DNA from: an uncultured Eubacteriales bacterium
Lineage (GTDB): Bacteria; Acidobacteriota; Aminicenantia; Aminicenantales; Aminicenantaceae
Assembly: GCA_964348015.1 (NCBI GenBank)
Contig: CAYGBC010000050.1
Span: 167,154 to 231,153, forward strand
Direction: 5' to 3'
Length of the DNA stretch: 64,000 bases
Made by a program: the position numbers and the translations under genes. Below the pieces are notes generated by a model. That model did no database searches and was not told where the DNA came from. It saw nothing but the letters and a program-made list of their open reading frames with translations. Of the stretch, positions 181 through 20,473 are shown one piece after another; positions within the stretch are counted from its first letter, which is position 1; every line of letters begins with the position of its first letter.

Positions 181-2217
181 TTACTTTAAGTATTCTGCCA
201 GCCATTCATGTACGGTTTTCCACCAGAGTTCTGCGTTCTGCGGCTTCTGGACGAAATGGTTTTCATCGGGGAAATACAGCATTTTGGACGGGACTCTCAT
301 TCTTTGGAGAGCTGTGAAAAACTGGAATCCTTGAGTGACCGGGACCCTAAAATCGTACTGTCCGTGAATCACGAGGCACGGGGTTTTAAAATTCTGGACG
401 AAGAAGCTTGGGGACCACTTCTCGTACATCTCTTTATTCGACCAGGGAGGGCCGTTGAATTCCCATTCTGGAAACCAGAGCTCTTCTGTCGCCCCATGCA
501 TCGACCGCAGGTCATAAACACCCGCATGGGAAATCAGACAGATGAACTTTGTGGTGTGACCTTCGATCCAGTTGATCATGTATCCGCCATAAGACGCGCC
601 GGCAGCCCCTAGACGGCTTTTATCGATGAAATTATATTCGGACAGAAGGTAATCCAAACCCTTCATGATGTCTTTGTAAGGTTTTCCGCCCCAATCGCCG
701 GTGATGGAATCTGTAAAAGCCTGGCCGTATCCTGTGCTGCCGTGGAAGTTGATCATAGCTGTGACATACCCGGGAGCCGCAAACATCTGGGCATTCCAGC
801 GGTAATGAAAGTTGTCCGACCAGGCGCCTTGAGGGCCTCCGTGAATGAGCATGACCAGCGGATATGTGTGTGAGGGATCAAAGTATGGAGGCTTGACCAG
901 AAAACCGTGAACTTTTTTTCCTTCGGCCCCTTCGAACCAGAAATCTTCTGCGGGATTCATCTCCAGCTTGGAGAGGAGGTTTTTGTTCATAGCAGTGAGC
1001 TGATTGATTTTTTTGGTTTTTAGGTCGAGAGAAAAAACATCAGCCGGGTGATGAAGAGCCTGCTTGAGAAAAACAAGCTTTTTTCCATCCGGGGATAGAC
1101 AGGGAGAGCTGATGTAGTGTCCTTGCAGGATTTTTTCGAACTTCTTGGTCTTGAGCGTGATCCGTCCCAGGGAGATCCGACCGTGTTCTTGATATGTGAC
1201 GTAAAGAACGGCGTTTTTTGCGGACCAGAGTATGGAGTTTATGGAGATATCCAGTTTTTCTGTCAGGTTCAAAGTTTTTTGGGTTTTCAGGTCGTAGAGA
1301 ATGAGGCTGTATTTGTCCGCCTCGAATCCGGGTCTGGCCATGGCCCGGTAAGCGATGTACCGTCCATCAGGAGAATAGTGAGGAGAGTTATCGTTGGCTG
1401 CGTTGGTCGTGATCTGTCGGATATCTCCCCCTTTGATGGGAGTGGTGAACAGGTCATTGTTTGTCCCGAGCGATATTTTGAGCTCCGGATCGATATTCCG
1501 GACAAAACAAATGGATTGTCCGTCTGCGGAAAATGCATAATCGTGGCCGCTTCCCAGAGATATCGGAGGAGTGTCGTAATCGCCGGGCGTGACATCTTTA
1601 GCTGTTCCTCCATCCGCAGGGATGACGAAGAGGTGGCTTCTCTTTTCATCCTGCCAAGAGTTCCAGTGCCGGAAGAGGAGCTGGTGGAAGAACTTGGCCT
1701 TGACTGCACTTTTGGCCTTTTCCTCATTTCTTTTTTTGTTGCATTCGTCATCCGGGCATTCCGGATAGACTGACGAAATAAACGCCAGATGTTTCCCGGT
1801 CGGGGACCAGACGACGCCGCTCGCTCCTGTGGACAGTCTTGTGACCTGGTGAGCTTCGCCTCCATGGGGGTCGATCATCCAGATTTGTGGAGATCCGCCT
1901 CTTGTCGATATGAAGGCGATTCTCTTCCCGTTCGGGGACCAACGAGGCCTGGAGTCGGATTCCGGGCTTGAGGTTAACCGTCTCGACTCTCCTCCGGATA
2001 GGGGAACGATCCATATATCACTGTTGCTGGTGTTCTTCTCCACGTCCATTTCCGTGACGACAAAGGCAATGAGGTCTCCGTTCGGAGAGACTTGCGGGTC
2101 GCTCACACGTTTTATGCGGATGAAATCATCAAACGAGAGGGGACGAGTTGACGAATTCGGCTGAAGAGTCGAGATCGAGAATAAAATCATCAATACAAAT
2201 ATTCCCGTTTTTTTCAT
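181..2217 (-). CDS. S9 family serine peptidase (prolyl oligopeptidase / acylaminoacyl-peptidase-like), secreted, with an N-terminal TolB-like beta-propeller
   Basis: 678 aa. N-terminal signal peptide MKKTGIFVLMILFSIS. Repeated SPDG/SPNG propeller motifs. The C-terminal alpha/beta hydrolase carries a GASYGGYM nucleophile elbow (GxSxGG) and HGGPQ. A GGAGG RBS precedes the ATG at 2217. Confidence 0.85.
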   Translation of the reverse strand: MKKTGIFVLMILFSISTLQPNSSTRPLSFDDFIRIKRVSDPQVSPNGDLIAFVVTEMDVEKNTSNSDIWIVPLSGGESRRLTSSPESDSRPRWSPNGKRIAFISTRGGSPQIWMIDPHGGEAHQVTRLSTGASGVVWSPTGKHLAFISSVYPECPDDECNKKRNEEKAKSAVKAKFFHQLLFRHWNSWQDEKRSHLFVIPADGGTAKDVTPGDYDTPPISLGSGHDYAFSADGQSICFVRNIDPELKISLGTNNDLFTTPIKGGDIRQITTNAANDNSPHYSPDGRYIAYRAMARPGFEADKYSLILYDLKTQKTLNLTEKLDISINSILWSAKNAVLYVTYQEHGRISLGRITLKTKKFEKILQGHYISSPCLSPDGKKLVFLKQALHHPADVFSLDLKTKKINQLTAMNKNLLSKLEMNPAEDFWFEGAEGKKVHGFLVKPPYFDPSHTYPLVMLIHGGPQGAWSDNFHYRWNAQMFAAPGYVTAMINFHGSTGYGQAFTDSITGDWGGKPYKDIMKGLDYLLSEYNFIDKSRLGAAGASYGGYMINWIEGHTTKFICLISHAGVYDLRSMHGATEELWFPEWEFNGPPWSNKEMYEKWSPSFFVQNFKTPCLVIHGQYDFRVPVTQGFQFFTALQRMRVPSKMLYFPDENHFVQKPQNAELWWKTVHEWLAEYLK

Positions 2218-2607: not shown

Positions 2608-2769
2608 TTATAAGCCAAGAGGAGCAGTGACGGATGGGCATTTAAAATCTGATTGGAGCGAAAACATCTCCTCATGTTCAATTTCTTCATTAGAAAAGAG
2701 GGAAATGATGCGGTTGTTGACATCGATTTGCCTCATCCCTATAGTATAGGCTTAATATGAGGAATAGGA

Positions 2770-4389
2770 ATGGATAAAAAGAACCATCCCGACACGCCCG
2801 ATTCCCTGGTGGAAGCCATAAAAAAAGCCTATCGAGACGGACAGGAAGATGAAGCGCTCGAGCCGATTGTCGCGGTGGACTCTTCCAGACAACCCATCGG
2901 TAGATTCGAACGGGGAGACTCAGTTATTTTTTACGATATTCGAGGAGAGAGAGAGATCCAGATCACCGAGAGTCTGACCCAAAAGGATTTCAATCACTTT
3001 CCAGTAGAGAAGGATCTAGACCTCAAGTTTGTGACCATGATCGAGTATGACTCCTCTCTCGATGTGGATGTCGCTTTTTCACCCGACAGGGAAATTAAAA
3101 ACACTTTAACTGAGGCTCTTTCTCACGCTGGCCTGAGATCTCTCAAAATCGCCGAATCGGAAAAGGCTATTCATGTGGGCTATTTCCTGAATGGGAAGAG
3201 TGAAGAAACGTTTCCAGGTGAGAAAAGGATTGTCATTCCTTCTCCTGAGGGGATTTCGTCTTATGCTTCCACGCCAGAAATGAGCGCCAGTCAGGTTGCC
3301 GATGCGATCTCTGAGAACATCGATAATCCTTCCTTCCGGATGATCGTGGCTAATTTAGCCAATGTCGACGTGATCGGTCATATAGAGGATCAAAACGCAG
3401 TGATCCAAGCCGTAGAAGAAGTTGACCGTCAGTTAGGGAAGATCGTGGAGAATTGCCGAAGCAAGGGGGTAACTCTTGTGGCCACCTCCGACCATGGGAC
3501 GGTAGAAGAGTGGCTCTATCCGGATGGGGCGATAAACACGGGACACACCAAAAATCCCGTTCCGTTTGTCCTAGCGGACTTCTCCAGCCCGCCTGAGGAC
3601 CAGAGCTTGAGACCGGAAGGAGAGCTTGCGGACGTCGCTCCAACTGTGCTGAGCCTCCTGGGAGTCGAAAAGCCCGCAGAAATGACTGGGGAATGTTTGC
3701 TCCTGCGCCCGCCGGAGAAAGCCAGGACAGGGCGCCGGGTGCTGCTTCTGATTCTGGATGGATGGGGCATGAGAGAGGACAGAGGCGGGAATCTCATCGC
3801 GGCTGCAAGGACTCCGAACTTCGACACATTGTGGTCTCGCTTCCCTCACGCCTTGCTCCAGGCATCAGGAGAAGCTGTGGGGATGCCCTCTCATACCGTG
3901 GGAAATTCAGAAGCCGGGCATCTGCACATCGGTGCGGGCAGGCGGATTTTTCTCGACCGGGTCAGGATCGATAGGGCCATAAAGAACGGCAGTTTTAATA
4001 CAAATGAGGCTTTTCTTTGGGCGATTGAAGAGGCCAAGAGAAATAAAAAAGCTCTTCATCTTTTAGGAATTGTGTCTTTCTACAGCTCCCACGGAACGCT
4101 CGACCATCTCTTTGCTCTTCTTCGCTTGGCGAAGCAGCATGAAGTGGAAAAAATTTTCATCCACTCTTTGATCGGTCGGAGGGGAGAAAAACCCGAGAGC
4201 GGAGCGATTTATATCGCTCAAGTCCAGGATACGTGCCGGTCGCTGTCTCTCGGCCAGGTTGTCACCGTGATAGGACGATTCTGGGCTCTGGACAGAGAAG
4301 AGAATTGGGACAGAGTGGAAAAGACTTATCGGGCACTCGTGTACGGAGAAGGGACACATGTTCCTGTGGGCCATGACATCAAAAAATAG
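2770..4389 (+). CDS. gpmI: 2,3-bisphosphoglycerate-independent phosphoglycerate mutase (iPGM), circularly permuted domain order
   Basis: 539 aa. Residues 1-310 align to the C-terminal two-thirds of canonical GpmI: AYRDGQEDEALEPIVAV, HVGYFLNGKSEETFPGEKRIVIPSP, ATSDHGTVEE, ADVAPTVLSLLGVEKPAEMTG. Residues 311-539 align to the GpmI N-terminus: LLLILDGWGMRED, GNSEAGHLHIGAGRR, ALHLLGIVS..SHGTLDHLFALLRLA, WALDREENWDRVEKTYRALVYGEG. This is a single uninterrupted ORF. Confidence 0.9.
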   Translation: MDKKNHPDTPDSLVEAIKKAYRDGQEDEALEPIVAVDSSRQPIGRFERGDSVIFYDIRGEREIQITESLTQKDFNHFPVEKDLDLKFVTMIEYDSSLDVDVAFSPDREIKNTLTEALSHAGLRSLKIAESEKAIHVGYFLNGKSEETFPGEKRIVIPSPEGISSYASTPEMSASQVADAISENIDNPSFRMIVANLANVDVIGHIEDQNAVIQAVEEVDRQLGKIVENCRSKGVTLVATSDHGTVEEWLYPDGAINTGHTKNPVPFVLADFSSPPEDQSLRPEGELADVAPTVLSLLGVEKPAEMTGECLLLRPPEKARTGRRVLLLILDGWGMREDRGGNLIAAARTPNFDTLWSRFPHALLQASGEAVGMPSHTVGNSEAGHLHIGAGRRIFLDRVRIDRAIKNGSFNTNEAFLWAIEEAKRNKKALHLLGIVSFYSSHGTLDHLFALLRLAKQHEVEKIFIHSLIGRRGEKPESGAIYIAQVQDTCRSLSLGQVVTVIGRFWALDREENWDRVEKTYRALVYGEGTHVPVGHDIKK

Positions 4390-4470: not shown

Positions 4471-5379
4471 ATGAGTATAGAAGTCAAGGATATCCACTTC
4501 AGTTACGGGAAGATCAAAGCTCTGGATGGCGTGAGCCTGGATCTTTCCCAGGGAGCCATAGGCCTACTCGGCCCAAACGGTGCCGGAAAGAGCACTCTGA
4601 TTCGCATCATGCTCGGATTTCTCTCTCCGGATGGGGGAGAAGGCCGGATTCTCGATTATGACATCAAGTCTCAACAGGATGAGATCCGCCGGTATGTGGG
4701 ATACATGCCTGAAGATGACTGTTTCATTCCTGAACTGGATGCAGTTTCATTCACTTCCTATCTTGGTGAACTGTCAGGAATGCCCCGTCAGGAAGCCATG
4801 AAACGAGCCCATGAAGTTCTGTATTACGTGGGGCTTGAGGAGAGCCGATACAGAACGGTGGAGACCTACTCCGCAGGCATGAAGCAGAGGCTCAAACTGG
4901 CCCAATCTTTGGTGCATGATCCAAAGCTCATTTTTCTGGATGAGCCGACGAGCGGTCTTGATCCCCAAGGAAGAACGGAAATACTGGACTTGATTATGGA
5001 TATCTCTTCTAAGAAAAATGTCCAGGTTTTGATCTCGTCTCATATTCTTCCGGATATCGAGCTGACGTGCGGTTATGTCGTGATTCTCAACAAGGGAATT
5101 GTAGCCTCACAGGGGGAGATCTCCAAGCTCAAAGAGATTCGAGATCTGTATGAGATAAAGGTGATGGGGGAGGCTCAGGCCTTTGTTAAAAAATTAGAAG
5201 ATATGAAATGCAGGGTGGAAGAAACAGAAGAGGGAATTCTGAAAGTCTACACACCTCCGAACTATAACCGGCAGGAATTTTTCAGGATCGCTGCCGAAGA
5301 AAAGCTGCAGTTGAGACATTTTGTCAAGAGTCAGTCTTCGCTCGAGGACCTGTTCGCCGATGCCGTGGGAGTGGATTGA
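4471..5379 (+). CDS. ABC transporter ATP-binding protein (ABC-2 type)
   Basis: Walker A GPNGAGKST, signature SAGMKQRL, Walker B IFLDEPTSGLD, H-loop SSHIL. Confidence 0.9.
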   Translation: MSIEVKDIHFSYGKIKALDGVSLDLSQGAIGLLGPNGAGKSTLIRIMLGFLSPDGGEGRILDYDIKSQQDEIRRYVGYMPEDDCFIPELDAVSFTSYLGELSGMPRQEAMKRAHEVLYYVGLEESRYRTVETYSAGMKQRLKLAQSLVHDPKLIFLDEPTSGLDPQGRTEILDLIMDISSKKNVQVLISSHILPDIELTCGYVVILNKGIVASQGEISKLKEIRDLYEIKVMGEAQAFVKKLEDMKCRVEETEEGILKVYTPPNYNRQEFFRIAAEEKLQLRHFVKSQSSLEDLFADAVGVD

Positions 5380-6248
5380 TGACCATAAAAGAGAAGGGAT
5401 ACACGCACTGGGATGGAGAGTTTTTGGATAAGAAACTCCCCTGGTGGCCGATCACTCGATACGGAATCAAACTCACATTCAGGAAAAAATTCTTTAAACT
5501 CATCTTCCCGTTGAGTCTTCTTCCCGCTGTCGTGTTTTTAGCCGGGATTTATGTGTCGGAACGACTGGAAGATTTCAAGTTTATGATTCGGGAATCTGTG
5601 CCCTTCCTCCAGATCAATCCTGCGTATTTTAAGACATACTTAGTCGACAACTTCATGCTGTTCATCATGATCATCATCGTGATCTTCTGCGGTGCGGGGC
5701 TGATCTCCGATGACCTCAAACACAATTCTCTCCAGCTGTACTTTGCAAGGCCGTTGAAGAAAAGAGATTATTTTTTCGGAAAGACCGCGGTTATCGTTTT
5801 CTTCTTATTCATCCTCACTCTGGTTCCGGGGTTAGTGTTCATCATCATGAAGCTTATTTTTGCGGGGAGTTTCAAGTTTTTTCTCTCCTATCCATGGCTT
5901 CCGATTGCGGTCATCGGTTATTCAATATTTGTGACCGCATTTTTTTCTTTTTATGTTCTTTTCCTCTCTTCGTTGAGCAAGAACCGAAGGTATGTGGCCA
6001 TCCTGATTTTCCTCATTTATGTTTTTTCTGACATATTCCGGGTGATTTTCTACGATAATTTTCACAACCACTACTTCTCGCTTCTTTCACTCAGGGCCAA
6101 TATCCAACAGGTGGGCGCGTTCATCTTCAGCCAGAAAACTCCTTACCCGATTCCTTGGTTTTATTCTTTGCTGGTTCTGACGGCCATCTGTGTTCTGGCA
6201 GGATTTGTCTTGAAGAAAAAAGTCAGAGGAGTCGAGATCGTCAAATGA
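5376..6248 (+). CDS. ABC-2 family transporter permease
   Basis: 290 aa polytopic membrane protein. Its start overlaps the upstream ATPase stop (ATGA) and its stop overlaps the next ATPase start (ATGA). Confidence 0.7.
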   Translation: MMTIKEKGYTHWDGEFLDKKLPWWPITRYGIKLTFRKKFFKLIFPLSLLPAVVFLAGIYVSERLEDFKFMIRESVPFLQINPAYFKTYLVDNFMLFIMIIIVIFCGAGLISDDLKHNSLQLYFARPLKKRDYFFGKTAVIVFFLFILTLVPGLVFIIMKLIFAGSFKFFLSYPWLPIAVIGYSIFVTAFFSFYVLFLSSLSKNRRYVAILIFLIYVFSDIFRVIFYDNFHNHYFSLLSLRANIQQVGAFIFSQKTPYPIPWFYSLLVLTAICVLAGFVLKKKVRGVEIVK

Positions 6249-7171
6249 AATCCGTGATCGAAACAGAACATCTTTCCAAATGGTATGGGAATGTTCTCGG
6301 ATTGAGTGATGTTTCTCTTCAGATAGAGCCGGGGATCACCGGGATTCTTGGACCGAACGGTGCAGGAAAGTCCACTTTCCTCAAGCTGATTTCCGGACAG
6401 ATCAAGCCGAACATCGGTACGTGCGCCATCAAAGGAGAGAGGGTTCGGAATAACTATCGTCTCTTCTCGAACATCGGTTTCTGTCCAGAGCAGGATGCCT
6501 TTTATGAAGACCTGACTGGATGGCAGTTCATGACCGGGCTCTTGAGGTTGTATCATTGTTCCCGCTCCGAGCGGGAATCCAGGGCCAAAGAGGCCCTGGA
6601 AATCGTGGAGCTGATGGAGGACAAGGACAGAGTCATAAAATCCTACAGCCGGGGCATGCGCCAAAGGCTCAAGGTGGCTCAGGCGATTGCTCATGACCCG
6701 GAGATCATCATCCTTGACGAGCCTTTGAATGGATTGGACCCACTGGGGAGGAGGAAGATCATACGCCTCATCAAGACCTATAAGGGCGAAGGTCGGACCA
6801 TCATCGTATCCAGCCACGTCCTTCCCGAGATTGAAGCCATGACCAAGCGCATCATCCTCATCCATCAGGGAAAGATATTCGCTCAAGGGGATATCCACTA
6901 TATCCGGGATTTGATCGAGTCACATCCTCATATCGTTTCTGTAAAATGCAGCGATCCGCGCCAGCTGGCCTCGGAATTCATTCAGGAGGATTTTGTCCTG
7001 AACGTGAATTTTAGCTCTGCGGAGGATACTCTTCTTGTCGAGACCAATAACAGGGATAAATTCTTCGGTCTTCTCCCTCCTCTTGTCGTCAGACACAACA
7101 TCGAAGTGGATGAGATCACGTCTCCCGATGACAACTTGCAGGCTGTTTTTGACTATTTGGTAGGAAAATAA
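6245..7171 (+). CDS. ABC transporter ATP-binding protein (second copy)
   Basis: The N-terminus MKSVIETEHLSKWYGN places the real start at ATG 6245. The 6155 extension in the ORF track overlaps the previous gene. Walker A GPNGAGKST, signature YSRGMRQRL, Walker B IILDEPLNGLD. Confidence 0.9.
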   Translation: MKSVIETEHLSKWYGNVLGLSDVSLQIEPGITGILGPNGAGKSTFLKLISGQIKPNIGTCAIKGERVRNNYRLFSNIGFCPEQDAFYEDLTGWQFMTGLLRLYHCSRSERESRAKEALEIVELMEDKDRVIKSYSRGMRQRLKVAQAIAHDPEIIILDEPLNGLDPLGRRKIIRLIKTYKGEGRTIIVSSHVLPEIEAMTKRIILIHQGKIFAQGDIHYIRDLIESHPHIVSVKCSDPRQLASEFIQEDFVLNVNFSSAEDTLLVETNNRDKFFGLLPPLVVRHNIEVDEITSPDDNLQAVFDYLVGK

Positions 7172-7172
7172 G

Positions 7173-7985
7173 ATGGTCCAGGAAATCCGAAAGAAATTGA
7201 AATTTTTTCTGAGTTCCGTGAAGGATGTATTCCCCTTTTTCTTCTCGATGGGAAGAAAATCAGCAAAGATGAAAGTCTTTGTCTTGATCAGTCTCCTTCC
7301 TGTCTTGATTGCCCTGATCATCAAGGTGAATCAATTCTTATCAGACCGAACGCCTATCCAGGGAATTTTTATCTTTAACAACATGGCTGTCGTGATCTAT
7401 CTCCAGTTCCTGATTCTCATCCTGGCTCTGTTTTACGGGACATCCGTGTGTTCAGAAGAGGTCGAGGGGAAAACATTGACCTATTTGACCACTCGTCCTG
7501 TCTCGAAGTCGGCTCTTCTCATCGGGAAATATGCGGCCTACACGTCTTTGGCCATTATCATGATAAGCATCGGAGTGATCCTGTCATTCCTGATCCTGAA
7601 TTTGAATGATTTGCTCAATTTTTCCCTGTATAAAACTTTGTTGAGAGATGTGGTCGTCCTGAGTTTGGGATTGATGTGCTACACTGCGTTTTTCACGTTT
7701 ATCGGAACGATCATGAGGAAATCGATCCTGTTCGGGCTGGTATTCAGTTTTGGATGGGAAAACGTGATCCAGTATTTTCCGGGTTCCACGCAACGCTTTG
7801 CCATAGTTCATTATCTCAAGTCTCTTCTGCCTGTCCCAAGAACAGGGCGTTTCTCTTTTCTAATGTTCAGGTTGGAGCCCAGCTCACCCCTGTTTTCGGT
7901 TTTTATGATTTTCCTGATCACAGGAGTGTTTCTTGGTTTAGCCTGTGTTCTTTTTTCCTGGAAAGAATATATATTCGAGGATTGA
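7173..7985 (+). CDS. ABC-2 family transporter permease (second copy)
   Basis: 270 aa with about 6 predicted TM helices. It begins 2 nt after the ATPase stop. Confidence 0.7.
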   Translation: MVQEIRKKLKFFLSSVKDVFPFFFSMGRKSAKMKVFVLISLLPVLIALIIKVNQFLSDRTPIQGIFIFNNMAVVIYLQFLILILALFYGTSVCSEEVEGKTLTYLTTRPVSKSALLIGKYAAYTSLAIIMISIGVILSFLILNLNDLLNFSLYKTLLRDVVVLSLGLMCYTAFFTFIGTIMRKSILFGLVFSFGWENVIQYFPGSTQRFAIVHYLKSLLPVPRTGRFSFLMFRLEPSSPLFSVFMIFLITGVFLGLACVLFSWKEYIFED

Positions 7986-8154
7986 GAATTAGAGAGAGGA
8001 AAAAAATCTTTTTTAGGGAGTGTTCCTTTTAATCCTTATAATTATGGACGGGAAAATACTGTTTTTCTTCTTTTAAAAATCACTTATCCTTTTATTATGA
8101 ATGATTCAGGAGACCCTGATGGTTCAGTTTATTCGGGGGAATTTTTTTCTCGTA

Positions 8155-9177
8155 TTATTTTATGTCTTCCTCTTCTGTCTCTTTCAACGTGAATTTACTC
8201 ATAAAATCATTGAAAAAGTCATCCGGATAACTGGCATAAATTCTCACGTGGTCTGGGGCGGATGTAATTTCAATCCTCTCTAAGACCTCAGCAAAGTTAA
8301 ATTCCTGGATCGTGATCATGGATCCCATTTCTTTCAGTCCGATCAGGTTGTCAGCGATTTCCTGATTGGAGATGGGATCACTGCTCCTGAGCTTGATCTC
8401 AGCCATGATAATCCTGTCCTTGTAGTCGAAGGAGAGAGAGACGGCCTGGATAGATTCCAGGTTAGTGGGCATGGGAATTTCGTCGCTCAAAGCCGCTGTG
8501 GCTTCCGGAGGAATCAGAACTCCTCCCCAGAACAGTGCGCTCTTGTCCGTATCCTTGAACAGGGCGGAAAATTCTTCGCTTTGCAGAACATTTCCTTTCT
8601 TTTTCTGCAAGACGTCTGTGACAGATTTGACGAGCGGCGCGTTTCCAGCGGCGATATTCGACTTGTCAATGAAAACGAAGGTGCCTTCTTCGTCTTTTTC
8701 TTTGTAATGGTACAGTGTGTAGCCGTTGTATTCCTCTTCTGTGAGTTCACTTTCCGTTTCTTCGGTTTTGGCTTTGATGAAGGAGAGCAGCGATTCCTTG
8801 TCGTATTTGAGGTTGACGATTCCAACACCCCAGTCGGGTTCCTCTTCAATCCCATCCCTCTCTTTCATGGCTGCCGCGACGTAATACACGTCCTTTTTCA
8901 GATCGATCCCAGTCATTTCGACGAATTTCTCGTAATCCGTAAATTCCTCGAATTCTTTGTCTTCCATTTTTTCATTGACGAGTTTATCCACGGTTTCCAC
9001 CGTCAGGATCCTTTGGACATCGATGAAGAACACGGCGGCCACATCTTCCGGAAGAAGACGGAGCATCTCTTCAGCCTGGGCAGCGCCTGCACTCGGGCCA
9101 AGAAGACCTTTCTCGCAGGAGATAAACGAAAACAGAATAAAAACAATCGCTACAGCGATGCCAGTAAATTTTTTCAT
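8155..9177 (-). CDS. Lipoprotein of unknown function, acidic
   Basis: A GAGGAGG RBS sits 8 nt upstream of the internal ATG at 9177. The N-terminus MKKFTGIAVAIVFILFSFISCEK is a lipoprotein signal with a lipobox Cys. I recognise no catalytic motifs. Confidence 0.55.
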   Translation of the reverse strand: MKKFTGIAVAIVFILFSFISCEKGLLGPSAGAAQAEEMLRLLPEDVAAVFFIDVQRILTVETVDKLVNEKMEDKEFEEFTDYEKFVEMTGIDLKKDVYYVAAAMKERDGIEEEPDWGVGIVNLKYDKESLLSFIKAKTEETESELTEEEYNGYTLYHYKEKDEEGTFVFIDKSNIAAGNAPLVKSVTDVLQKKKGNVLQSEEFSALFKDTDKSALFWGGVLIPPEATAALSDEIPMPTNLESIQAVSLSFDYKDRIIMAEIKLRSSDPISNQEIADNLIGLKEMGSMITIQEFNFAEVLERIEITSAPDHVRIYASYPDDFFNDFMSKFTLKETEEEDIK

Positions 9178-9436: not shown

Positions 9437-11437
9437 TCAGGTCTTAAGTCTGGATCTCAAATACACGGAGAGAAAAATTACAGCAAAAACGAGGACGATC
9501 ACGACAGATATTATAATGATGAATATCGTAGTTTCAGTAAAGGCGATTCCTGGAGAAACGACAGGCAGAGAGATCGAGGACGCATGCTTTCTGTTCTGGT
9601 ATATTGTGACCTGAGGCGGTGGGTCCAGTTCGGGTGTTTGAAAATTACTCTGGTCCGCGCCGGCGATTGTCACGCGGATCCGGTGGCCGGCATCGAAGAT
9701 GTTGGACGTCGGAAGAAGGTCAAAAACCAGCCGCACAGGCGTTTCCGCGGGAAGGGGAGCGACATCCTCCCTGAAGCTCCTGTGAAACGGAAGTCCCATG
9801 TATTGGAAGGATGGGTTTGAGACTTTGCGGTGAGAAGCTCTGAGTACTCCCTCCGTGATATAATGGGAATATCCCGCTTCGTCAATCTCTTCGAGATAGG
9901 CAAAGAAATCGCCGTCCTCGGCAGTCGAAGACACCCAGAGCGTGACAACCGGATGGCCTGTCACTTCTGTGTCTTGTTCCAATGGAGGCGTTGTGTATGT
10001 CAGGGCTTTCCTGTCGTTGGGAGTCATATCCGGATACTGAAAATCAACTCCAATGCCGTTGTACCATCTCGTTGAATGTCCTGTTGTCGTGGTGTAGTCG
10101 ACGGCATACTCGACCTTTCCGGACTCGCTGGCAGGAGTCTCAGTGCCGAGAATCCCGTCATTCGAGGAGCCGATACTTCCGGATGGGCCATCGTGGAAGT
10201 AGAAAAGAGTGGGTTTGGCCTCAGGAAGAGGCCATTTTTTGGCCGTTCTCCAGGCTTCACCTTCAGGAGCTCCGATAGTGAAATAAGTGATGGGCGGCTC
10301 GTCCATGATCCCGTTATCGATACCCTTGAGCCAGTAATCGTACCATCTCAACCGCTCCGCTTTTATGTCGAATTTCACATCGAATCCGGTCAGAGGACGC
10401 ACAGTCTCTCTCCAGCCGTCACCGGGACTATGACACCAGGGAGTGATGATGATCTTCTGGGGATTTTCAATGTTGTTGAACCAGGTCAGCATATCCCGAG
10501 GCCAGAGGTCGAACCATCCCGCGACATGGTAGACGGCCACATCGGACTCGTTGATTCCTGTTAAAGAGTGGTGAGGGCTCCAGAAGAGATAGGGCATGAC
10601 TTGAAGCTCTTCTAAGGAGCTGTTCCGAAAAGGAAGGACGACAGCGATATCTGCCGCATATCTGTTTCCCCTGTGTGCCTGTCTTGCTTCCTCCAGCATT
10701 TTTTGCTGAGTGTCATCATCTACAGCCGGAACAGGGATATCATTGTCCAGCTGATTGACAAAATCGCTCCAGGCCAGGATAAAATCATCCTGGAATACGC
10801 CACCAGGATAGGCGAAGGAAAAAAGGTCGAACATCGCCACAGAGGGCATAATGGCTTTAAGATGAGGTGGAGCCGTCCCCGCCGCAGTGTACTGAGTGAT
10901 CCCTAAATACGAGCCTCCGTACATGCCGATATTTCCGTCACACCAGGGCTGGGCCGCGAACCATTCGGTTATGTCGTATGCGTCCTGGGCTTCTGCTGGA
11001 GTGAACGGCCCTAAGCGTGTCCCGTAGGAAGCTCCTCCGCCTCTGACATCGACGGAGGCCACGATATACCCGTGCTTGAGCATAGTCTGAAGCCACTCGT
11101 TCATATCCACTATGGTGACGAGTTTCCCGTCCTCTGTGAATCTAGCTCTGTGATAGCGGTTATGAGTCCAAATCAGCGGCAGTGGTTCTTTCACTGGCTT
11201 TCCTCCCTGGCTCGGACGGAAGACGTCCACCGCCAGTTTGGTCCCGTCTCGCACAGGGACATACTGGGAGATTCGGATCCATTCTTCGTAGACGGGTTGA
11301 GAATAGCCCTTATACACTCCAGGCAGTGAGACCCTCTCTTCTCCTGCATTAGCTTCCTTCAATAAAAGAAATGCAAAAGAGAGGAAAAGGAAAAACACAA
11401 AGAGTTTAGCCATTGTTCCTGTTGATTTTTTCTTCAT
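9437..11437 (-). CDS. CocE/NonD family hydrolase (S15 Xaa-Pro dipeptidyl-peptidase-like) with an N-terminal signal peptide and a C-terminal transmembrane anchor
   Basis: 666 aa. Shows VASVDVRGGGASYG and YGGSYLGITQ (GxSxG nucleophile) typical of CocE/NonD. The C-terminal 30 aa TTIFIIIISVVIVLVFAVIFLSVYLRSRLKT form a hydrophobic helix followed by basic residues. Confidence 0.8.
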   Translation of the reverse strand: MKKKSTGTMAKLFVFFLFLSFAFLLLKEANAGEERVSLPGVYKGYSQPVYEEWIRISQYVPVRDGTKLAVDVFRPSQGGKPVKEPLPLIWTHNRYHRARFTEDGKLVTIVDMNEWLQTMLKHGYIVASVDVRGGGASYGTRLGPFTPAEAQDAYDITEWFAAQPWCDGNIGMYGGSYLGITQYTAAGTAPPHLKAIMPSVAMFDLFSFAYPGGVFQDDFILAWSDFVNQLDNDIPVPAVDDDTQQKMLEEARQAHRGNRYAADIAVVLPFRNSSLEELQVMPYLFWSPHHSLTGINESDVAVYHVAGWFDLWPRDMLTWFNNIENPQKIIITPWCHSPGDGWRETVRPLTGFDVKFDIKAERLRWYDYWLKGIDNGIMDEPPITYFTIGAPEGEAWRTAKKWPLPEAKPTLFYFHDGPSGSIGSSNDGILGTETPASESGKVEYAVDYTTTTGHSTRWYNGIGVDFQYPDMTPNDRKALTYTTPPLEQDTEVTGHPVVTLWVSSTAEDGDFFAYLEEIDEAGYSHYITEGVLRASHRKVSNPSFQYMGLPFHRSFREDVAPLPAETPVRLVFDLLPTSNIFDAGHRIRVTIAGADQSNFQTPELDPPPQVTIYQNRKHASSISLPVVSPGIAFTETTIFIIIISVVIVLVFAVIFLSVYLRSRLKT

Positions 11438-11562
11438 TCAGCCGCTCTCCTTTAAACTGGTATTTCAGTCATTATGCAAACGAGATGAATGCATGCGCGT
11501 TGTCACCTCTGTCTCAAATATCATCAATACAAAGGAATAAATATTCGTTAATTTAAAAAATT

Positions 11563-12534
11563 TTATTTCATATACCTGTAGAGCGCCATCTGGCTGGAAT
11601 AGAGCAGACATCTGATCCAGATGACGGAAAATATAAACAACTGCTGGATGAAAAAGACAGCGAGAACCAAAGGGAAATTGGGCTGGGGAATAATCTCTAT
11701 GAGCATGATATAGGCGACGGTTACTATCGTTTGAATCAACAGGATCAGGTAGAAAAGCCCGAATGTGGAAAACGGATGTTTAAAGACGAATCCCAATGCT
11801 TCCAGTGTGGACTTGAAAATATTTCGCCTCTCTTCGAGGACGATTTTGATGCGGGCATAGTCAAAAACCATCTGGACGAAGAGGAGGAAACCAAAGGTTA
11901 AAATGCTGAGAGCAAGCCTGAGAATAAAGGGGGTCACTTCAGAAATGGATTCGGATGCGATGTCATTAATGAGGGCGTAGATGTTGCCCAGGAAAAAAGT
12001 GCCGATGGCCACGATGATTCCCCAGGAGAGGAGCATGAGGCCGAGAAACCGCAAAAAATGATTTCCGGCTCCCTGAGTAAATTCTTTCAGAGTGAATCTT
12101 GGTATATCCCGGCTAAAAGTCGAAAGGATTCCTCCGGCCAAGAATACACGGAATATGAGATAGAAGAGGCCGAAGGCTATGAGGAGAGGCGGAATAGAAA
12201 AAAATCTCATCTGGATGAGGCTTTCCAGATTATTGAGGACCGCTCCTTTCCCGATGATCGAAGGGGAGAATGTGGTCTCCAGGCCTTTAGCGTCATCTCT
12301 GAATTCTTGCCACCAGATATAGTCAAAGCCTTCGGCCATCCTGGAGCCTGCTTCGCTCTGGCCGAGTGATCCTTTGAGAGAATTGTACATCGGGACGGCG
12401 AGAAGCAAGGAAAAGAAAAGGTTGATTATGTACAGAAAGAGTACCATTTTTGTGGCTTTTCCCGTGGCGATGAATCCTCTTCCCAAATTCCAGTATATTT
12501 TCATCTTCGACCTCCGTTTCCGTTTAGCCGCCAA
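11563..12534 (-). CDS. Polytopic membrane protein of unknown function
   Basis: 323 aa with about 6-7 hydrophobic helices. Its start at 12534 overlaps the upstream M1 peptidase stop at 12524; an alternative start is 12504. It is probably co-transcribed with the M1 peptidase. Confidence 0.5.
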   Translation of the reverse strand: MAAKRKRRSKMKIYWNLGRGFIATGKATKMVLFLYIINLFFSLLLAVPMYNSLKGSLGQSEAGSRMAEGFDYIWWQEFRDDAKGLETTFSPSIIGKGAVLNNLESLIQMRFFSIPPLLIAFGLFYLIFRVFLAGGILSTFSRDIPRFTLKEFTQGAGNHFLRFLGLMLLSWGIIVAIGTFFLGNIYALINDIASESISEVTPFILRLALSILTFGFLLFVQMVFDYARIKIVLEERRNIFKSTLEALGFVFKHPFSTFGLFYLILLIQTIVTVAYIMLIEIIPQPNFPLVLAVFFIQQLFIFSVIWIRCLLYSSQMALYRYMK

Positions 12535-14557
12535 TCATCGTAAAGAATTCTAGGGCGTGCTGGAGCCAGGCCATCCAGTGAGAGATCCACTTGAAGGGAG
12601 CCAGTTTATCAGGTTTTCTCATCATGCTGTTGTTGGTGCGGTTGATATCCAGGACATACTTAAACTCCGGGTCCACTACGGCCTTTTTTATCCTCGAAGA
12701 TTTCAGGTATGTAAATCTTTCCCATCTGTACTGGCCGTTCCATGTTTCTTTGATTTCTTCTCCGTCTTCAAACACGACGAGAACATCCACAGGGAGTTTC
12801 ACTTCTCCCAAGCGGCGCACGATGACTTCCGAGTTGTAGCGTTCTTCTTTGATTCGTCGGTTTACGTACTCTCCATCAAACCATCCTTGCGGCTGTTTGA
12901 CTCTCTGGCTGGAGATTTTTCCTATCGCATAGTCGAGCTTTCCCGATCCGTATACAAATTGATCCAGAAACCAGCTCATTTCCCTGCCGGCGAACTCAGA
13001 AACGACTGCAAAGAAATCATCCGGACGAGGATGCTTGAACCAGTAGCGCTGTGAATACGTTTTAATCATTTCCGCAAATAGATCTTGCCCCATGAATCTT
13101 TTCAGGGTTCGCAGCATGAGAGAGGCCTTCGAGTAGGAATTGGCGCCGTAGCTTCCTCCTTCCAGGAATTCCCACGCGAAGCGCTGCATATCGTCCATGT
13201 CTGAGGTCTGGCGGTGGCGTGAGATTCCATCGGATTCGATCGGGATTCTGATGTTCTTGAACGTGACAGGAATCCCAAAAAAGGTTCGGTTGTAGACAGG
13301 CTCCCCATAGGCCGCGTAATAGACTTCCGTATCCAGAAAGGATGTGAATCCCTCATCCATCCAGGCATTCTCAAACTCGTTGGTGCCGACGAGGCCGTAG
13401 AAATAACCATGCCCGAACTCATGGATGGTCACTCCCTCAGGGCGTGGGATTCCTTTCCATGTGATGAAGTACGCGCCTCCGGTGAACAGCGTCGGATATT
13501 CCATCCCCCCTGAACGGCTGTTGTAGGCCGGGTCAACACATGTGGCTGTTGTGTAAGGATAATCACCGTAGAAGAGGCTGCAGTATTTGATAGCGTTTTT
13601 CACGGCATTCATGTAGCGGTTCTTGAGCCATTTATGCTGGGGTTGAAGAAGCAGTGTGATCTCAGTCGTCTTTCCCGGAGCAAACTCGTAATTTTCTCGA
13701 GTTTCGAGGAATCGAGGGCTGGCTGTCCAGGTAAAATCATGCACACTGTGTTGGTGAAAGCGATGAGTTGTGGTCCCATCATTATGCTCTGTTTTTTCCC
13801 TGTGCTCCCCAGTGGCGCCGATAACAAAAGAGGAGGGGAGGGTGATGCGGACATCGTAGGTTCCGTAATCGGCATAATACTCGCTCGCGGAATGGTACTG
13901 GTGGCAGTTCCATCGACCGTTCTCAAAAACGCCGATCTTCGGAAACCATTGTGCGATGAAATAATAATCCCTGTATACTCCGGTTCGAGAAATGGGACGG
14001 GGGATTTTGGATTCGAACTCGATCCTTAGCTGGATTGTCTGACCGGGCCTGACAGCACGCGGAAGTGAGACTGAAAAAACAGTCTGGTCGAAAAGATTCC
14101 CGTTGTCCGGATGCCGAAACTCCATGAACGGCATCAGGTCGGATTCTTCGAATAAAGAGTTGGCCATGATCTTGATCGTCTCCACCCGGCAGTGTCCCCA
14201 GTCTTCATCCTTGAAACCAGAGATTCTTCGGCCTCTCCTTTCGGCCTCTGTGAGAAAAGTGCTCATGTTGTTCTGGAAGGCATTCCAGTAAAGATGGAAC
14301 CAGAGTTCGTTCGTCGGTGAGGATGTGTCGTTCGTCCAGGTGAGGATTTCTGTGGCCTTTATTGTTTTATTTTCTGTATCCAGCCTCACGTCCATCGTGT
14401 AATTGGCAATCTGTTTGCAGAAGGTTTCTTGAGAGAATACCATGGGTGGAGAAAAAATGAGGATTATCAATATACATGATAAGAGATATGTCTTAAACAA
14501 AATGTCCTCCTTTTGGCATGATTTTTCCATATTATTAAAGATGTCTTTTTTTCGCAA
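12524..14557 (-). CDS. M1 family metallopeptidase (aminopeptidase N-like gluzincin), secreted
   Basis: 677 aa. HEFGHGYFYGLVGTNEFENAWMDEGF fits the HExxH-x18-E zinc site. A signal peptide lies at residues about 22-42; the start may instead be the internal Met at 14530. Confidence 0.85.
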   Translation of the reverse strand: MRKKDIFNNMEKSCQKEDILFKTYLLSCILIILIFSPPMVFSQETFCKQIANYTMDVRLDTENKTIKATEILTWTNDTSSPTNELWFHLYWNAFQNNMSTFLTEAERRGRRISGFKDEDWGHCRVETIKIMANSLFEESDLMPFMEFRHPDNGNLFDQTVFSVSLPRAVRPGQTIQLRIEFESKIPRPISRTGVYRDYYFIAQWFPKIGVFENGRWNCHQYHSASEYYADYGTYDVRITLPSSFVIGATGEHREKTEHNDGTTTHRFHQHSVHDFTWTASPRFLETRENYEFAPGKTTEITLLLQPQHKWLKNRYMNAVKNAIKYCSLFYGDYPYTTATCVDPAYNSRSGGMEYPTLFTGGAYFITWKGIPRPEGVTIHEFGHGYFYGLVGTNEFENAWMDEGFTSFLDTEVYYAAYGEPVYNRTFFGIPVTFKNIRIPIESDGISRHRQTSDMDDMQRFAWEFLEGGSYGANSYSKASLMLRTLKRFMGQDLFAEMIKTYSQRYWFKHPRPDDFFAVVSEFAGREMSWFLDQFVYGSGKLDYAIGKISSQRVKQPQGWFDGEYVNRRIKEERYNSEVIVRRLGEVKLPVDVLVVFEDGEEIKETWNGQYRWERFTYLKSSRIKKAVVDPEFKYVLDINRTNNSMMRKPDKLAPFKWISHWMAWLQHALEFFTMIGG

Positions 14558-14717
14558 TACATATTCGGAAAATTAATCCTAAAATATCGGTCTCATCTCT
14601 AAATCCTAGGGTCCATTTTGCATGTCCGGCTTTTTTTAATAGAGAAACCATGATAAAGTTAATTTCTAGAAAAATGGGATTGTGTTTTGATTCCTCAAGA
14701 TAAAGAGGAGGTTGAAA

Positions 14718-18268: not shown

Positions 18269-18460
18269 CTACGAGATGTAACCGAGTCCTTTAAGCTTTT
18301 TTTTGATCTCCTCTTCGGAATCGGATTCATCGAGCTTGGCGATTTCCTTCTCCAGACAGTGAGCGATGAACTCTTCGGGCGATGAATAGCCGGACATTTT
18401 GGCGTATTTTTTCACTTTGTCCATCAAATTTTTATCCAGTTTTATTTTAGCTTTTCCCAT
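18269..18460 (-). CDS. Small ribbon-helix-helix (CopG/Arc-like) protein, 63 aa
   Basis: KIKLDKNLMDKVKKYAKMSGYSSPEEFIAHCLEKEIAKL fits a beta-strand, helix, helix RHH pattern, followed by an acidic tail. It overlaps the stop of the upstream NPP gene by 14 nt. Confidence 0.4.
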   Translation of the reverse strand: MGKAKIKLDKNLMDKVKKYAKMSGYSSPEEFIAHCLEKEIAKLDESDSEEEIKKKLKGLGYIS

Positions 18461-20462: not shown

Positions 20463-20473
20463 TCGTGTTTCCC

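What the first reader, a model, noticed from the sequence alone, without database searches (positions are those of the whole stretch)
2770..4389. Circularly permuted cofactor-independent phosphoglycerate mutase
The 539-aa ORF is a full-length iPGM whose two halves are swapped. Its residues 1-310 are collinear with E. coli GpmI residues about 215-514. These include AYARDENDEFVKATVI-like AYRDGQEDEALEPIVAV, the FFFNGG.EE.F.GE.R.L..SP block, SDHG, and the APT.LSLLG.E.P.EMTG tail. Its residues 311-539 are collinear with GpmI about 8-225. These include the metal/Ser-phosphorylation region LILDGWG...GNSE(A)GH, SHG.LDHLFALLRLA, and DR(E/D)NRWDRVEK. The junction is seamless and in frame. The gene has its own RBS-like gaggaa-ATG start and a normal stop. 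This is the signature expected from a tandem-duplication and terminal-truncation origin, not a frameshifted fusion. Both the phosphatase-domain and transferase-domain catalytic motifs are retained, so an active permuted enzyme is plausible. I am not aware of a described circularly permuted iPGM, and the new termini fall inside the transferase domain.
Basis: partly seen in the sequence, partly recalled or inferred. Interest (0 to 1): 0.72.

Follow-up and report, generated by a model that had tools for sequence, protein, structure and literature searches.

The report
Circularly permuted phosphoglycerate mutase gene
This gene encodes a complete glycolytic enzyme (cofactor-independent phosphoglycerate mutase) whose two halves sit in swapped order; the swap is real, is conserved under purifying selection across the whole Aminicenantes lineage and several other bacterial groups, and I found no paper that describes it.

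Summary
Window 2770..4389 (+) is an intact 539-aa ORF. Residues 10-301 match the C-terminal 60% of iPGM. Residues 323-530 match the N-terminal 40%. A 9-residue linker joins the old C- and N-termini. The break falls exactly between positions 131 and 133 of Pfam iPGM_N, with nothing lost or duplicated.

It is not an assembly artefact. The same order occurs in at least 80 species-level genomes, including 4-Mb chromosome-level assemblies, in more than 120 protein clusters, and in an independent assembly of the identical sequence. Both halves show dN/dS of 0.06-0.14, while the linker is relaxed. A near-consensus promoter and the ATG are invariant across species.

All seven metal and nucleophile ligands and seven of eight substrate-pocket residues are kept; Asp154 is lost. 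AlphaFold gives a confident model (pTM 0.84) that overlays 1EJJ at 2.0 Å over 301 residues.

Permuted iPGMs fall into two classes. One is a divergent 'SSHG' clade (100% bootstrap) that includes this gene, Limnochordia and Ca. Desulfofervidus. The other is a few small groups that keep canonical motifs.

Three things remain untested: whether there was one origin or several, whether this is the only PGM in the genome, and enzymatic activity. No literature describing it was found. Verdict: a new topological variant of a known enzyme, of moderate interest.

The parts
2717..2745 (+). Sigma-70-type promoter, TTGACA-17 nt-TATAGT
   Evidence: It matches 11 of 12 consensus positions. Both hexamers, the spacer end and the ATG are invariant in five Aminicenantes species whose flanking DNA cannot be aligned.
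2759..2764 (+). Shine-Dalgarno-like GAGGAA, 5 nt before the ATG
   Evidence: Read directly from the sequence.
2770..4389 (+). CDS of the circularly permuted iPGM (539 aa plus stop)
   Evidence: ORF list and sequence. Homology to iPGM. dN/dS of 0.06-0.14 against orthologues.
2797..3051 (+). aa 10-94: second part of the transferase domain (iPGM_N profile 133-216; B. stearothermophilus about 213-305). It carries Arg58 and Arg61 (= R261, R264).
3082..3672 (+). aa 105-301: C-terminal part of the phosphatase core (Metalloenzyme profile 64-252). It carries K132, D200, H204, D241, H242 and H259 (= K336, D403, H407, D444, H445, H462).
3706..3732 (+). aa 313-321 (RPPEKARTG): linker joining the ancestral C-terminus to the ancestral N-terminus
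   Evidence: It is unaligned to canonical iPGM. Its sequence varies while its length stays within a few residues across all permuted lineages. dN/dS is about 0.7 in the closest pair, against about 0.12 in the flanking parts. AF2 pLDDT is about 75 here.
3736..3930 (+). aa 323-387: N-terminal part of the phosphatase core (Metalloenzyme profile 2-60). It carries D330 (= D12), the nucleophile Ser380 (= S62; codon 3907-3909) and H384 (= H66).
3967..4359 (+). aa 400-530: first part of the transferase domain (iPGM_N profile 1-131). It carries H441, R470/R471, R503 and R509 (= H123, R153, R185, R191), and the class-specific SSHG motif in place of GVHSH.

Best explanation
The gene encodes a functional, naturally circularly permuted cofactor-independent phosphoglycerate mutase.

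Topology. The canonical enzyme runs A1-B-A2, with the transferase domain B inserted into the alkaline-phosphatase-like domain A. Here the chain runs B2-A2-linker-A1-B1. The phosphatase core has become contiguous, joined by a 9-residue linker across the old termini. The transferase domain is now assembled from the two chain ends. The break lies in a loop between a beta-strand and the next helix (B. stearothermophilus about 211/213).

Mechanism (inferred). Chemistry is the canonical one. A two-Mn2+ site (D330, S380, D200, H204, D241, H242, H259) transfers the phosphate of 3-phosphoglycerate to Ser380. The glycerate is held and re-oriented by the Arg/His/Lys pocket of the transferase domain (H441, R470/471, R503, R509, R58, R61, K132). 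The phosphate is then returned to give 2-phosphoglycerate, with hinge closure between the two domains.

Role (inferred). It is most likely the housekeeping glycolytic and gluconeogenic PGM of Aminicenantes. It is transcribed from its own conserved promoter.

Origin (inferred). The gene belongs to an old, divergent, exclusively permuted clade (the 'SSHG' class) that is also found in Limnochordia, Ca. Desulfofervidus and other lineages. The permutation probably arose by tandem duplication, in-frame fusion and loss of the outer parts, and then spread vertically and by transfer.

Shown: the topology, its reality, its conservation, purifying selection, retention of ligands, and a confident iPGM-like model. 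Inferred: catalytic activity, the housekeeping role and the mode of origin.
For: Topology:
- Swapped alignment to solved iPGMs and to TIGR01307 (494 bits against a cutoff of 330.65, in two stretches).
- Exact Pfam break at iPGM_N 131/133.

Reality of the gene:
- 120 protein clusters at 66-100% identity align over 96-100% of the query in one local alignment.
- 134 matches in species-representative genomes. The best 80 are collinear over about residues 1-531. They include chromosome-level records CP070825.1, OY969696.1, OY969586.1 and OY970261.1, and CP070750.1.
- The identical sequence occurs in an independent Logan assembly.

Selection and expression:
- dN/dS is 0.06-0.14 in both halves, with a relaxed linker.
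- The promoter and ATG are invariant across species that are saturated at synonymous sites.

Active site and fold:
- 15 of 16 active-site residues are conserved, and 69 of 79 columns that are at least 90% conserved in canonical iPGM are retained.
- The AF2 model has pLDDT 84 and pTM 0.84. Foldseek finds 1EJJ at E = 2e-20, with 301 columns at 2.0 Å in the closed form.

Family and context:
- The SSHG class is a clan with 100/100 bootstrap support, and every member seen is permuted.
- A class-II permuted gene overlaps the PGI gene by 4 nt, which is a glycolytic operon context.
- No second iPGM or dPGM lies within 1.08 Mb of DNA held around permuted genes.
Against: - No enzymatic data exist.
- Whole genomes could not be searched, so a second canonical PGM (gpmA, gpmI or apgM) elsewhere cannot be excluded.
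- Asp154, 97% conserved in canonical iPGM, is replaced here. It is Gly472 in the ungapped phmmer alignment and Arg471 in the MAFFT alignment. It is Ser in most other class members.
- Five further near-invariant canonical positions differ (M189L, N259D/C/F, D263E, G409x, N447T/L), and GVHSH becomes SSHG. The class sits on a long branch (mean distance 1.23 against 0.97). This could mean altered specificity.
- Gene context is not glycolytic. In Aminicenantes the conserved neighbour is an ABC-2 exporter block. In Limnochordia it is a phosphohexomutase.
- The spatial closeness of the old termini rests on the AF2 model's confidence only.
Confidence: 0.75

Rival explanations
1. Neofunctionalised paralogue. 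The SSHG-class permuted proteins, including this one, keep the phosphoserine and two-metal machinery but act on a different phospho-substrate, or act as a phosphatase. They would not be the cell's PGM.
For: - Asp154 is lost, along with five other near-invariant canonical residues that cluster in the transferase domain and next to metal ligands.
- The class forms a long branch with 100% support.
- It is never seen in a gap-pgk-tpi-eno context in the loci examined.
- It has a conserved ABC-2 exporter neighbour in 76 of 80 Aminicenantes loci.
- In the Desulfofervidus-like group it overlaps a giant PPDK_N-containing ORF.
Against: - All Arg, His and Lys residues that bind phosphoglycerate in canonical iPGM are conserved.
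- The gene is present in all 80 Aminicenantes species loci returned by the scan and is under strong purifying selection, as expected of a core enzyme.
- No alternative activity is known for any protein containing iPGM_N (my own knowledge).
- gpmI is a stand-alone gene in many bacteria, so lack of operon context is weak evidence.
Confidence: 0.17
2. Assembly or annotation artefact. The order would result from a collapsed tandem duplicate, a chimeric contig, or a frameshifted fusion of two gene fragments.
For: None was found. The only prior reason is that metagenome assemblies can mis-join repeats.
Against: - The same order and breakpoint appear in 80 or more species at 61-87% identity, in many independent studies and assemblers, including 4-Mb chromosome-level records.
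- The identical sequence occurs in an independent Logan assembly spanning the junction.
- GC content is uniform across the junction.
- The start codon and promoter are conserved.
- Both halves are under purifying selection.
Confidence: 0.01
3. Recurrent origin. The permutation arose independently several times at the same permissive loop (once for the SSHG class, and separately for the P0127, P0128, P0130 and P0238 groups). It would not be a single ancient event.
For: - The class-II permuted groups keep canonical motifs (VHSH, DGRD, FNFR.DR, DHGN).
- They are closer to canonical iPGMs (47-53% identity) than to the SSHG class (about 40%).
- A clan of all permuted proteins has 0-2% bootstrap support.
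- Similar linker length is expected automatically from any head-to-tail fusion of canonical genes.
Against: - The breakpoint is the same within about 5 residues in all groups.
- The all-permuted clan does appear in the point NJ tree with richer sampling.
- Long-branch effects of the SSHG class could hide a single origin.
- Only distance trees were possible here.
Confidence: 0.35

Closest known systems
Canonical bacterial cofactor-independent phosphoglycerate mutase (GpmI/GpmM; TIGR01307; PDB 1EJJ, 1O98, 2IFY)
   Same: - About 40% identity over both parts.
- The same two Pfam domains.
- All seven metal and nucleophile ligands and seven of eight substrate-pocket residues.
- The predicted fold overlays 1EJJ at 2.0 Å over 301 residues.
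   Different: - Chain order is B2-A2-linker-A1-B1 instead of A1-B-A2.
- The termini lie in the transferase domain, and the old termini are fused by a 9-aa linker.
- Asp154 is lost.
- GVHSH becomes SSHG and FNFRxDR becomes Y(D/C)xRGER.
Class-II permuted iPGMs (P0127, P0128, P0130 and P0238 groups; unnamed metagenomic proteins)
   Same: They share the breakpoint and linker position.
   Different: They keep the canonical motifs including Asp154. They are only about 40% identical to the window protein. One is translationally coupled to PGI. One is embedded in a 5027-aa ORF.
Other natural circular permutations of enzymes, for example eukaryotic versus bacterial glutathione synthetase (mentioned in PMC2876114); also DNA methyltransferases and swaposins (my own knowledge)
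   Same: It is the same kind of evolutionary event. The fold and active site are preserved with a re-ordered chain, classically explained by duplication, fusion and truncation.
   Different: The enzyme family is different. Here the permutation turns a domain-insertion topology inside out: the inserted domain becomes the split one.
Archaeal-type iPGM (ApgM, TIGR00306) and phosphopentomutase (DeoB)
   Same: They share the alkaline-phosphatase-superfamily core. Weak matches to the C-terminal core were found (E = 1e-8 to 1e-10).
   Different: They have no iPGM_N domain. Scores are far below their cutoffs (34-40 bits against 256-320). The window protein is not a member of these families.

Membership tests
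Cofactor-independent phosphoglycerate mutase (iPGM, GpmI; EC 5.4.2.12) | Alkaline-phosphatase-like core with the two-metal site and phosphoserine nucleophile (B. stearothermophilus D12, S62, D403, H407, D444, H445, H462) | tested here: met
   All seven are conserved: D330, S380, D200, H204, D241, H242, H259. Metalloenzyme scores 203.7 bits.
Cofactor-independent phosphoglycerate mutase (iPGM, GpmI; EC 5.4.2.12) | iPGM_N transferase domain with the substrate-binding residues H123, R153, D154, R185, R191, R261, R264, K336 | tested here: inconclusive
   iPGM_N scores 188 bits. Seven of eight residues are conserved. D154 is replaced by Gly472 or Arg471 here and by Ser in most class members. The residue list is from my own knowledge of the 1EJJ papers. 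The identities were checked against the 1EJJ sequence.
Cofactor-independent phosphoglycerate mutase (iPGM, GpmI; EC 5.4.2.12) | Collinear architecture A1-B-A2 (transferase domain inserted into the phosphatase domain) | tested here: not met
   The order is iPGM_N(133-216) - Metalloenzyme(64-252) - Metalloenzyme(2-60) - iPGM_N(1-131). The protein is therefore a homologue by descent but a topological variant, not a canonical GpmI.
Cofactor-independent phosphoglycerate mutase (iPGM, GpmI; EC 5.4.2.12) | Score above the curated equivalog cutoff | tested here: inconclusive
   TIGR01307 scores 494.4 against a cutoff of 330.65, but summed over two swapped stretches. NF003897 scores 384.6 against a cutoff of 862, so it is not met. 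NCBI names relatives 'alkaline phosphatase family protein' or 'hypothetical protein', whereas JGI names them iPGM.
Cofactor-independent phosphoglycerate mutase (iPGM, GpmI; EC 5.4.2.12) | Three-dimensional fold of solved iPGM | tested here: met
   The AF2 model has pTM 0.84. 1EJJ, 1O98 and 1O99 are the top Foldseek hits at E about 2e-20, with rmsd 2.0 Å over 301 columns. Only the larger half can be aligned by a sequential aligner. No full non-sequential overlay was done.
Cofactor-independent phosphoglycerate mutase (iPGM, GpmI; EC 5.4.2.12) | Catalyses 3-phosphoglycerate <-> 2-phosphoglycerate without 2,3-BPG | not testable with these tools
   This needs an enzyme assay or genetic complementation.
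Natural circular permutant (duplication-fusion-truncation model) | Two segments collinear with the parent in swapped order, covering the whole parent once, joined across the old termini | tested here: met
   There is no internal similarity between the halves.
Natural circular permutant (duplication-fusion-truncation model) | Existence of tandem-duplicated or partially truncated intermediates | tested here: not met
   None of the 150 best representatives has an N-C-N, C-N-C or N-C-N-C order. Longer proteins carry unrelated extensions. Absence of extant intermediates does not refute the model.

The most novel reading that the evidence does not exclude
There are two stronger readings.

(a) The iPGM fold has a single 'hot' loop at which circular permutation has succeeded repeatedly and independently in different bacterial lineages.

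(b) The exclusively permuted SSHG clade has lost the otherwise near-invariant Asp154 and remodelled the glycerate pocket. It would be a new enzyme activity built on the iPGM scaffold rather than a plain PGM.

Either reading would make this family more than a topological curiosity.
Probability: 0.3. Interest if true: 0.7.

Novelty: new variant of a known kind. Interest (0 to 1): 0.5.

Why it matters
iPGM is a central glycolytic enzyme, a drug target in nematodes, trypanosomatids and Gram-positive pathogens, and a textbook case of a catalytic domain inserted into an alkaline-phosphatase core.

- **Protein evolution.** A widespread natural permutant shows that the fold and the two-domain hinge mechanism tolerate cutting the transferase domain and closing the phosphatase domain. 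That gives a ready-made natural experiment on folding order, domain insertion and hinge dynamics.
- **Annotation.** NCBI pipelines label many of these proteins 'hypothetical protein' or 'alkaline phosphatase family protein'. Automated metabolic reconstructions of Aminicenantes, Limnochordia and others may therefore wrongly report a gap in glycolysis and gluconeogenesis.
- **Function.** The Asp154-less SSHG clade is a candidate for modified specificity.

Tried and rejected
- **Misassembly, chimera or pseudogene.** Rejected.
- **Second iPGM copy or remnant of a tandem duplicate.** None in the window. None within 1.08 Mb of related loci. No duplicated intermediates among the 150 best representatives.
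- **'SSHG' motif in canonical-order proteins.** Two regex hits turned out to be at a non-homologous position.
- **Single versus multiple origin.** Bootstrapped NJ trees were inconclusive. No ML software was available.
- **Literature.** Four full-text searches found nothing on a permuted iPGM. Searches for active-site residue roles and for Aminicenantes PGM gave nothing useful. The EMBO J 2000 structure paper is not held, so the role of Asp154 rests on memory.
- **Structure.** Model coordinates are not exposed, so I could not do a non-sequential superposition or measure the distance between the old termini.
- **Rfam.** The scan of the window found nothing.
- **Downstream genes.** NCBIfam shows only a generic DrrA/GldA-like ABC-2 exporter, with no evident link to PGM function.
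- **Other PGMs in the genome.** Whole genomes could not be fetched, so it is unknown whether Aminicenantes carry another PGM.
Full report
**1. The observation**

Window 2770..4389 (+) is an uninterrupted 539-codon ORF with an ATG start. GAGGAA sits 5 nt upstream, and an in-frame TGA lies three codons before the ATG.

phmmer against all PDB sequences finds only iPGMs, each in two stretches in swapped order. Query 12-310/312 aligns with residues 213-506/510 of the B. anthracis and B. stearothermophilus enzymes. Query 322-529 aligns with residues 4-211. Each stretch has E about 1e-60 and about 40% identity. TIGR01307 gives 494 bits, with query 8-311 on profile 208-504.

Pfam run on quarters of the protein gives the exact anatomy:
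- aa 10-94 = iPGM_N 133-216
- aa 105-301 = Metalloenzyme 64-252
- aa 323-387 = Metalloenzyme 2-60
- aa 400-530 = iPGM_N 1-131

The parent is therefore covered once. The cut lies between iPGM_N positions 131 and 133 (B. stearothermophilus about 211/213). Residues 313-321 (RPPEKARTG, nt 3706-3732) bridge the old C- and N-termini. The halves are not similar to each other, and the window has no other iPGM-like copy.

**2. Is it real?**

That test fails.
- The protein search returns 120 clusters at 66-100% identity that align over 96-100% of the query in a single local alignment, so they share the same order. They come from NCBI, JGI, ENA and Logan, on contigs up to 4.35 Mb.
- The scan of one genome per species finds 134 matches. 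The best 80 (61-87% identity) are all collinear over about residues 1-531. Almost all are titled Candidatus Aminicenantes, Aminicenantia or Acidobacteriota. They include chromosome-level records CP070825.1, OY969696.1, OY969586.1 and OY970261.1, and CP070750.1.
- The identical nucleotide sequence occurs in an independent Logan assembly that spans the junction.
- GC content is even across the junction.

**3. Is it a working gene?**

- Nei-Gojobori dN/dS against five orthologues is 0.06-0.14 for the whole gene and for each half separately. The 13 codons around the linker are relaxed, at about 0.7 in the only pair that is not saturated. This is the pattern expected of a functional enzyme with a passive connector.
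- A near-consensus promoter (TTGACA-17-TATAGT, 2717-2745) lies 24 nt before the ATG. In an alignment of five species whose synonymous sites are saturated, both hexamers and the ATG are invariant while the DNA further upstream cannot be aligned. The new N-terminus is therefore a conserved, dedicated translation start.
- AlphaFold2 with 63 family members gives pLDDT 84 and pTM 0.84, with only the first 8 and last 4 residues disordered. The linker block has pLDDT about 75.
- Foldseek puts 1EJJ, 1O99 and 1O98 first (E about 2e-20) with 301 columns at 2.0 Å. The TM-score of 0.52 normalised to the full query is about the ceiling for an aligner that can only place one of the two swapped parts. The closed, substrate-bound form fits best.

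**4. Active site**

I rebuilt B. stearothermophilus numbering from the alignment and checked it. I then compared 128 canonical representatives with the permuted proteins.

All metal ligands and the nucleophile are kept: D12, S62, D403, H407, D444, H445 and H462. In the window protein these are D330, S380, D200, H204, D241, H242 and H259. Also kept are H66, H123, R153, R185, R191, R261, R264 and K336.

The exception is Asp154, which is 97% conserved in canonical enzymes. It is Gly472 in the ungapped phmmer alignment, Arg471 in the MAFFT alignment, and Ser in most relatives.

Five other near-invariant canonical positions differ class-wide: M189L, N259D/C/F, D263E, G409x and N447T/L. The SDGGVHSH motif reads S.YSSHGT. 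Overall, 69 of 79 strongly conserved canonical columns are retained. That these residues form the active site of 1EJJ is my own knowledge, because the structure paper was not available.

**5. The wider family**

A full HMMER pass over 1.84 billion representatives lists 134 canonical and 15 permuted proteins among the best 150. All permuted ones share the breakpoint within about 5 residues and a linker of similar length. They fall into two classes.

*Class I ('SSHG').* This class lacks Asp154. It contains the Aminicenantes proteins plus groups named by their sources as Limnochordia, Ca. Desulfofervidus auxilii (UniRef A0A7C0Y5T5) and a Pseudomonadota MAG. The Limnochordia protein is seen on 254 contigs, up to 2.5 Mb.
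- On back-permuted alignments it is a clan with 100/100 bootstrap support and a long branch.
- No canonical-order protein in my sample has its signature at the homologous position.

*Class II.* These groups (P0127, P0128, P0130, P0238) keep the canonical motifs.
- The P0128 group has only a handful of permuted relatives. The next hits are canonical iPGMs at 47-53% identity.

A clan of all permuted proteins appears in one point tree but has 0-2% bootstrap support. One origin versus several therefore remains open. No duplicated or half-truncated intermediate was seen.

**6. Context**

- In Aminicenantes the gene is followed on the same strand, 50-440 nt downstream, by a four-gene ABC-2 exporter block in 76 of 80 loci. 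A divergent S9 peptidase lies upstream in 34 of 80.
- In Limnochordia the neighbour is a phosphohexomutase.
- In the Desulfofervidus-like group the gene overlaps the end of a 2100-2400-aa ORF with a PPDK_N domain.
- In the P0128 group the gene overlaps the PGI gene by 4 nt, which is a glycolytic context.
- No second iPGM, and no close dPGM homologue, occurs in the 1.08 Mb of DNA held. Whole genomes could not be searched.

**7. Interpretation**

The best-supported reading is a functional circularly permuted iPGM. It works by the canonical phosphoserine and two-Mn2+ mechanism, with domain closure. The chain order is B2-A2-linker-A1-B1, so the phosphatase core is contiguous and the transferase domain is formed by the two chain ends. 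The two inter-domain crossings are kept (about aa 107/108 and 394/395). It most likely serves as the housekeeping PGM of Aminicenantes.

The main rival is that the Asp154-less class has shifted specificity, which I put at about 0.17. An artefact is excluded.

**8. Novelty**

Four full-text searches found no description of a permuted iPGM. Database names range from 'iPGM' (JGI) to 'alkaline phosphatase family protein' and 'hypothetical protein' (NCBI).

Circular permutation as such is a well-known mode of protein evolution, and the enzyme family is well known. I therefore rate this a new variant of a known kind, with moderate interest (0.5). Interest would be higher if recurrence at one loop or a new activity were demonstrated.

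Noticed in passing
L092 65..15211 (+) (Logan ERR14964769 contig, 15.6 kb, about 61% GC): A single uninterrupted ORF of 5027-5048 aa carries a permuted iPGM (canonical-motif class) at aa 3854-4375 and a calcineurin-like Metallophos domain at about aa 740-943. Pfam recognises nothing else. A giant protein with an embedded glycolytic-type enzyme is unexplained.
   Followed up: partly
window 4471..7985 (+): A four-gene ABC-2-type exporter block (DrrA/GldA-like ATPase, permease, ATPase, permease) follows the permuted iPGM gene on the same strand in 76 of 80 Aminicenantes species loci and in closed genome CP070750.1. The synteny is unusually stable for genes with no obvious functional link.
   Followed up: partly
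L086 389..6817 and L087 1..7044 (+): In the Ca. Desulfofervidus-like group the permuted iPGM gene overlaps by 44 nt the 3' end of a 2142- to 2401-aa ORF. That ORF has a PPDK_N (PEP-utilising, ATP-grasp) domain and faint P-loop kinase hits. This may be a functional coupling around PEP and phosphoglycerate.
   Followed up: no
L088 5556..7004 and 7001..8626 (+): In the P0128 group the permuted iPGM start overlaps the stop of a glucose-6-phosphate isomerase gene by 4 nt, which suggests translational coupling in a glycolytic operon.
   Followed up: no
window 18447..23904 (-): Three consecutive ORFs (671, 712 and 431 aa) all carry the Phosphodiest (type I phosphodiesterase / nucleotide pyrophosphatase) domain of the alkaline-phosphatase superfamily. 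One gave the only weak secondary tblastn hit to the iPGM query.
   Followed up: partly
window 181..2217 (-), 9437..16775, 24226..26373 (-): The region is rich in peptidases (S9, S15/PepX, M1, M28) and has an ADP-forming acetyl-CoA synthetase. This fits the peptide-fermenting lifestyle ascribed to Aminicenantes.
   Followed up: no
L002-L081 record titles: Many species-representative MAGs that carry this Aminicenantes-type gene and synteny are titled 'uncultured Eubacteriales bacterium'. One each is titled 'Clostridiales bacterium' (L078) and 'Candidatus Desulfaltia sp.' (L060). These are probably placeholder or wrong taxonomic labels.
   Followed up: no
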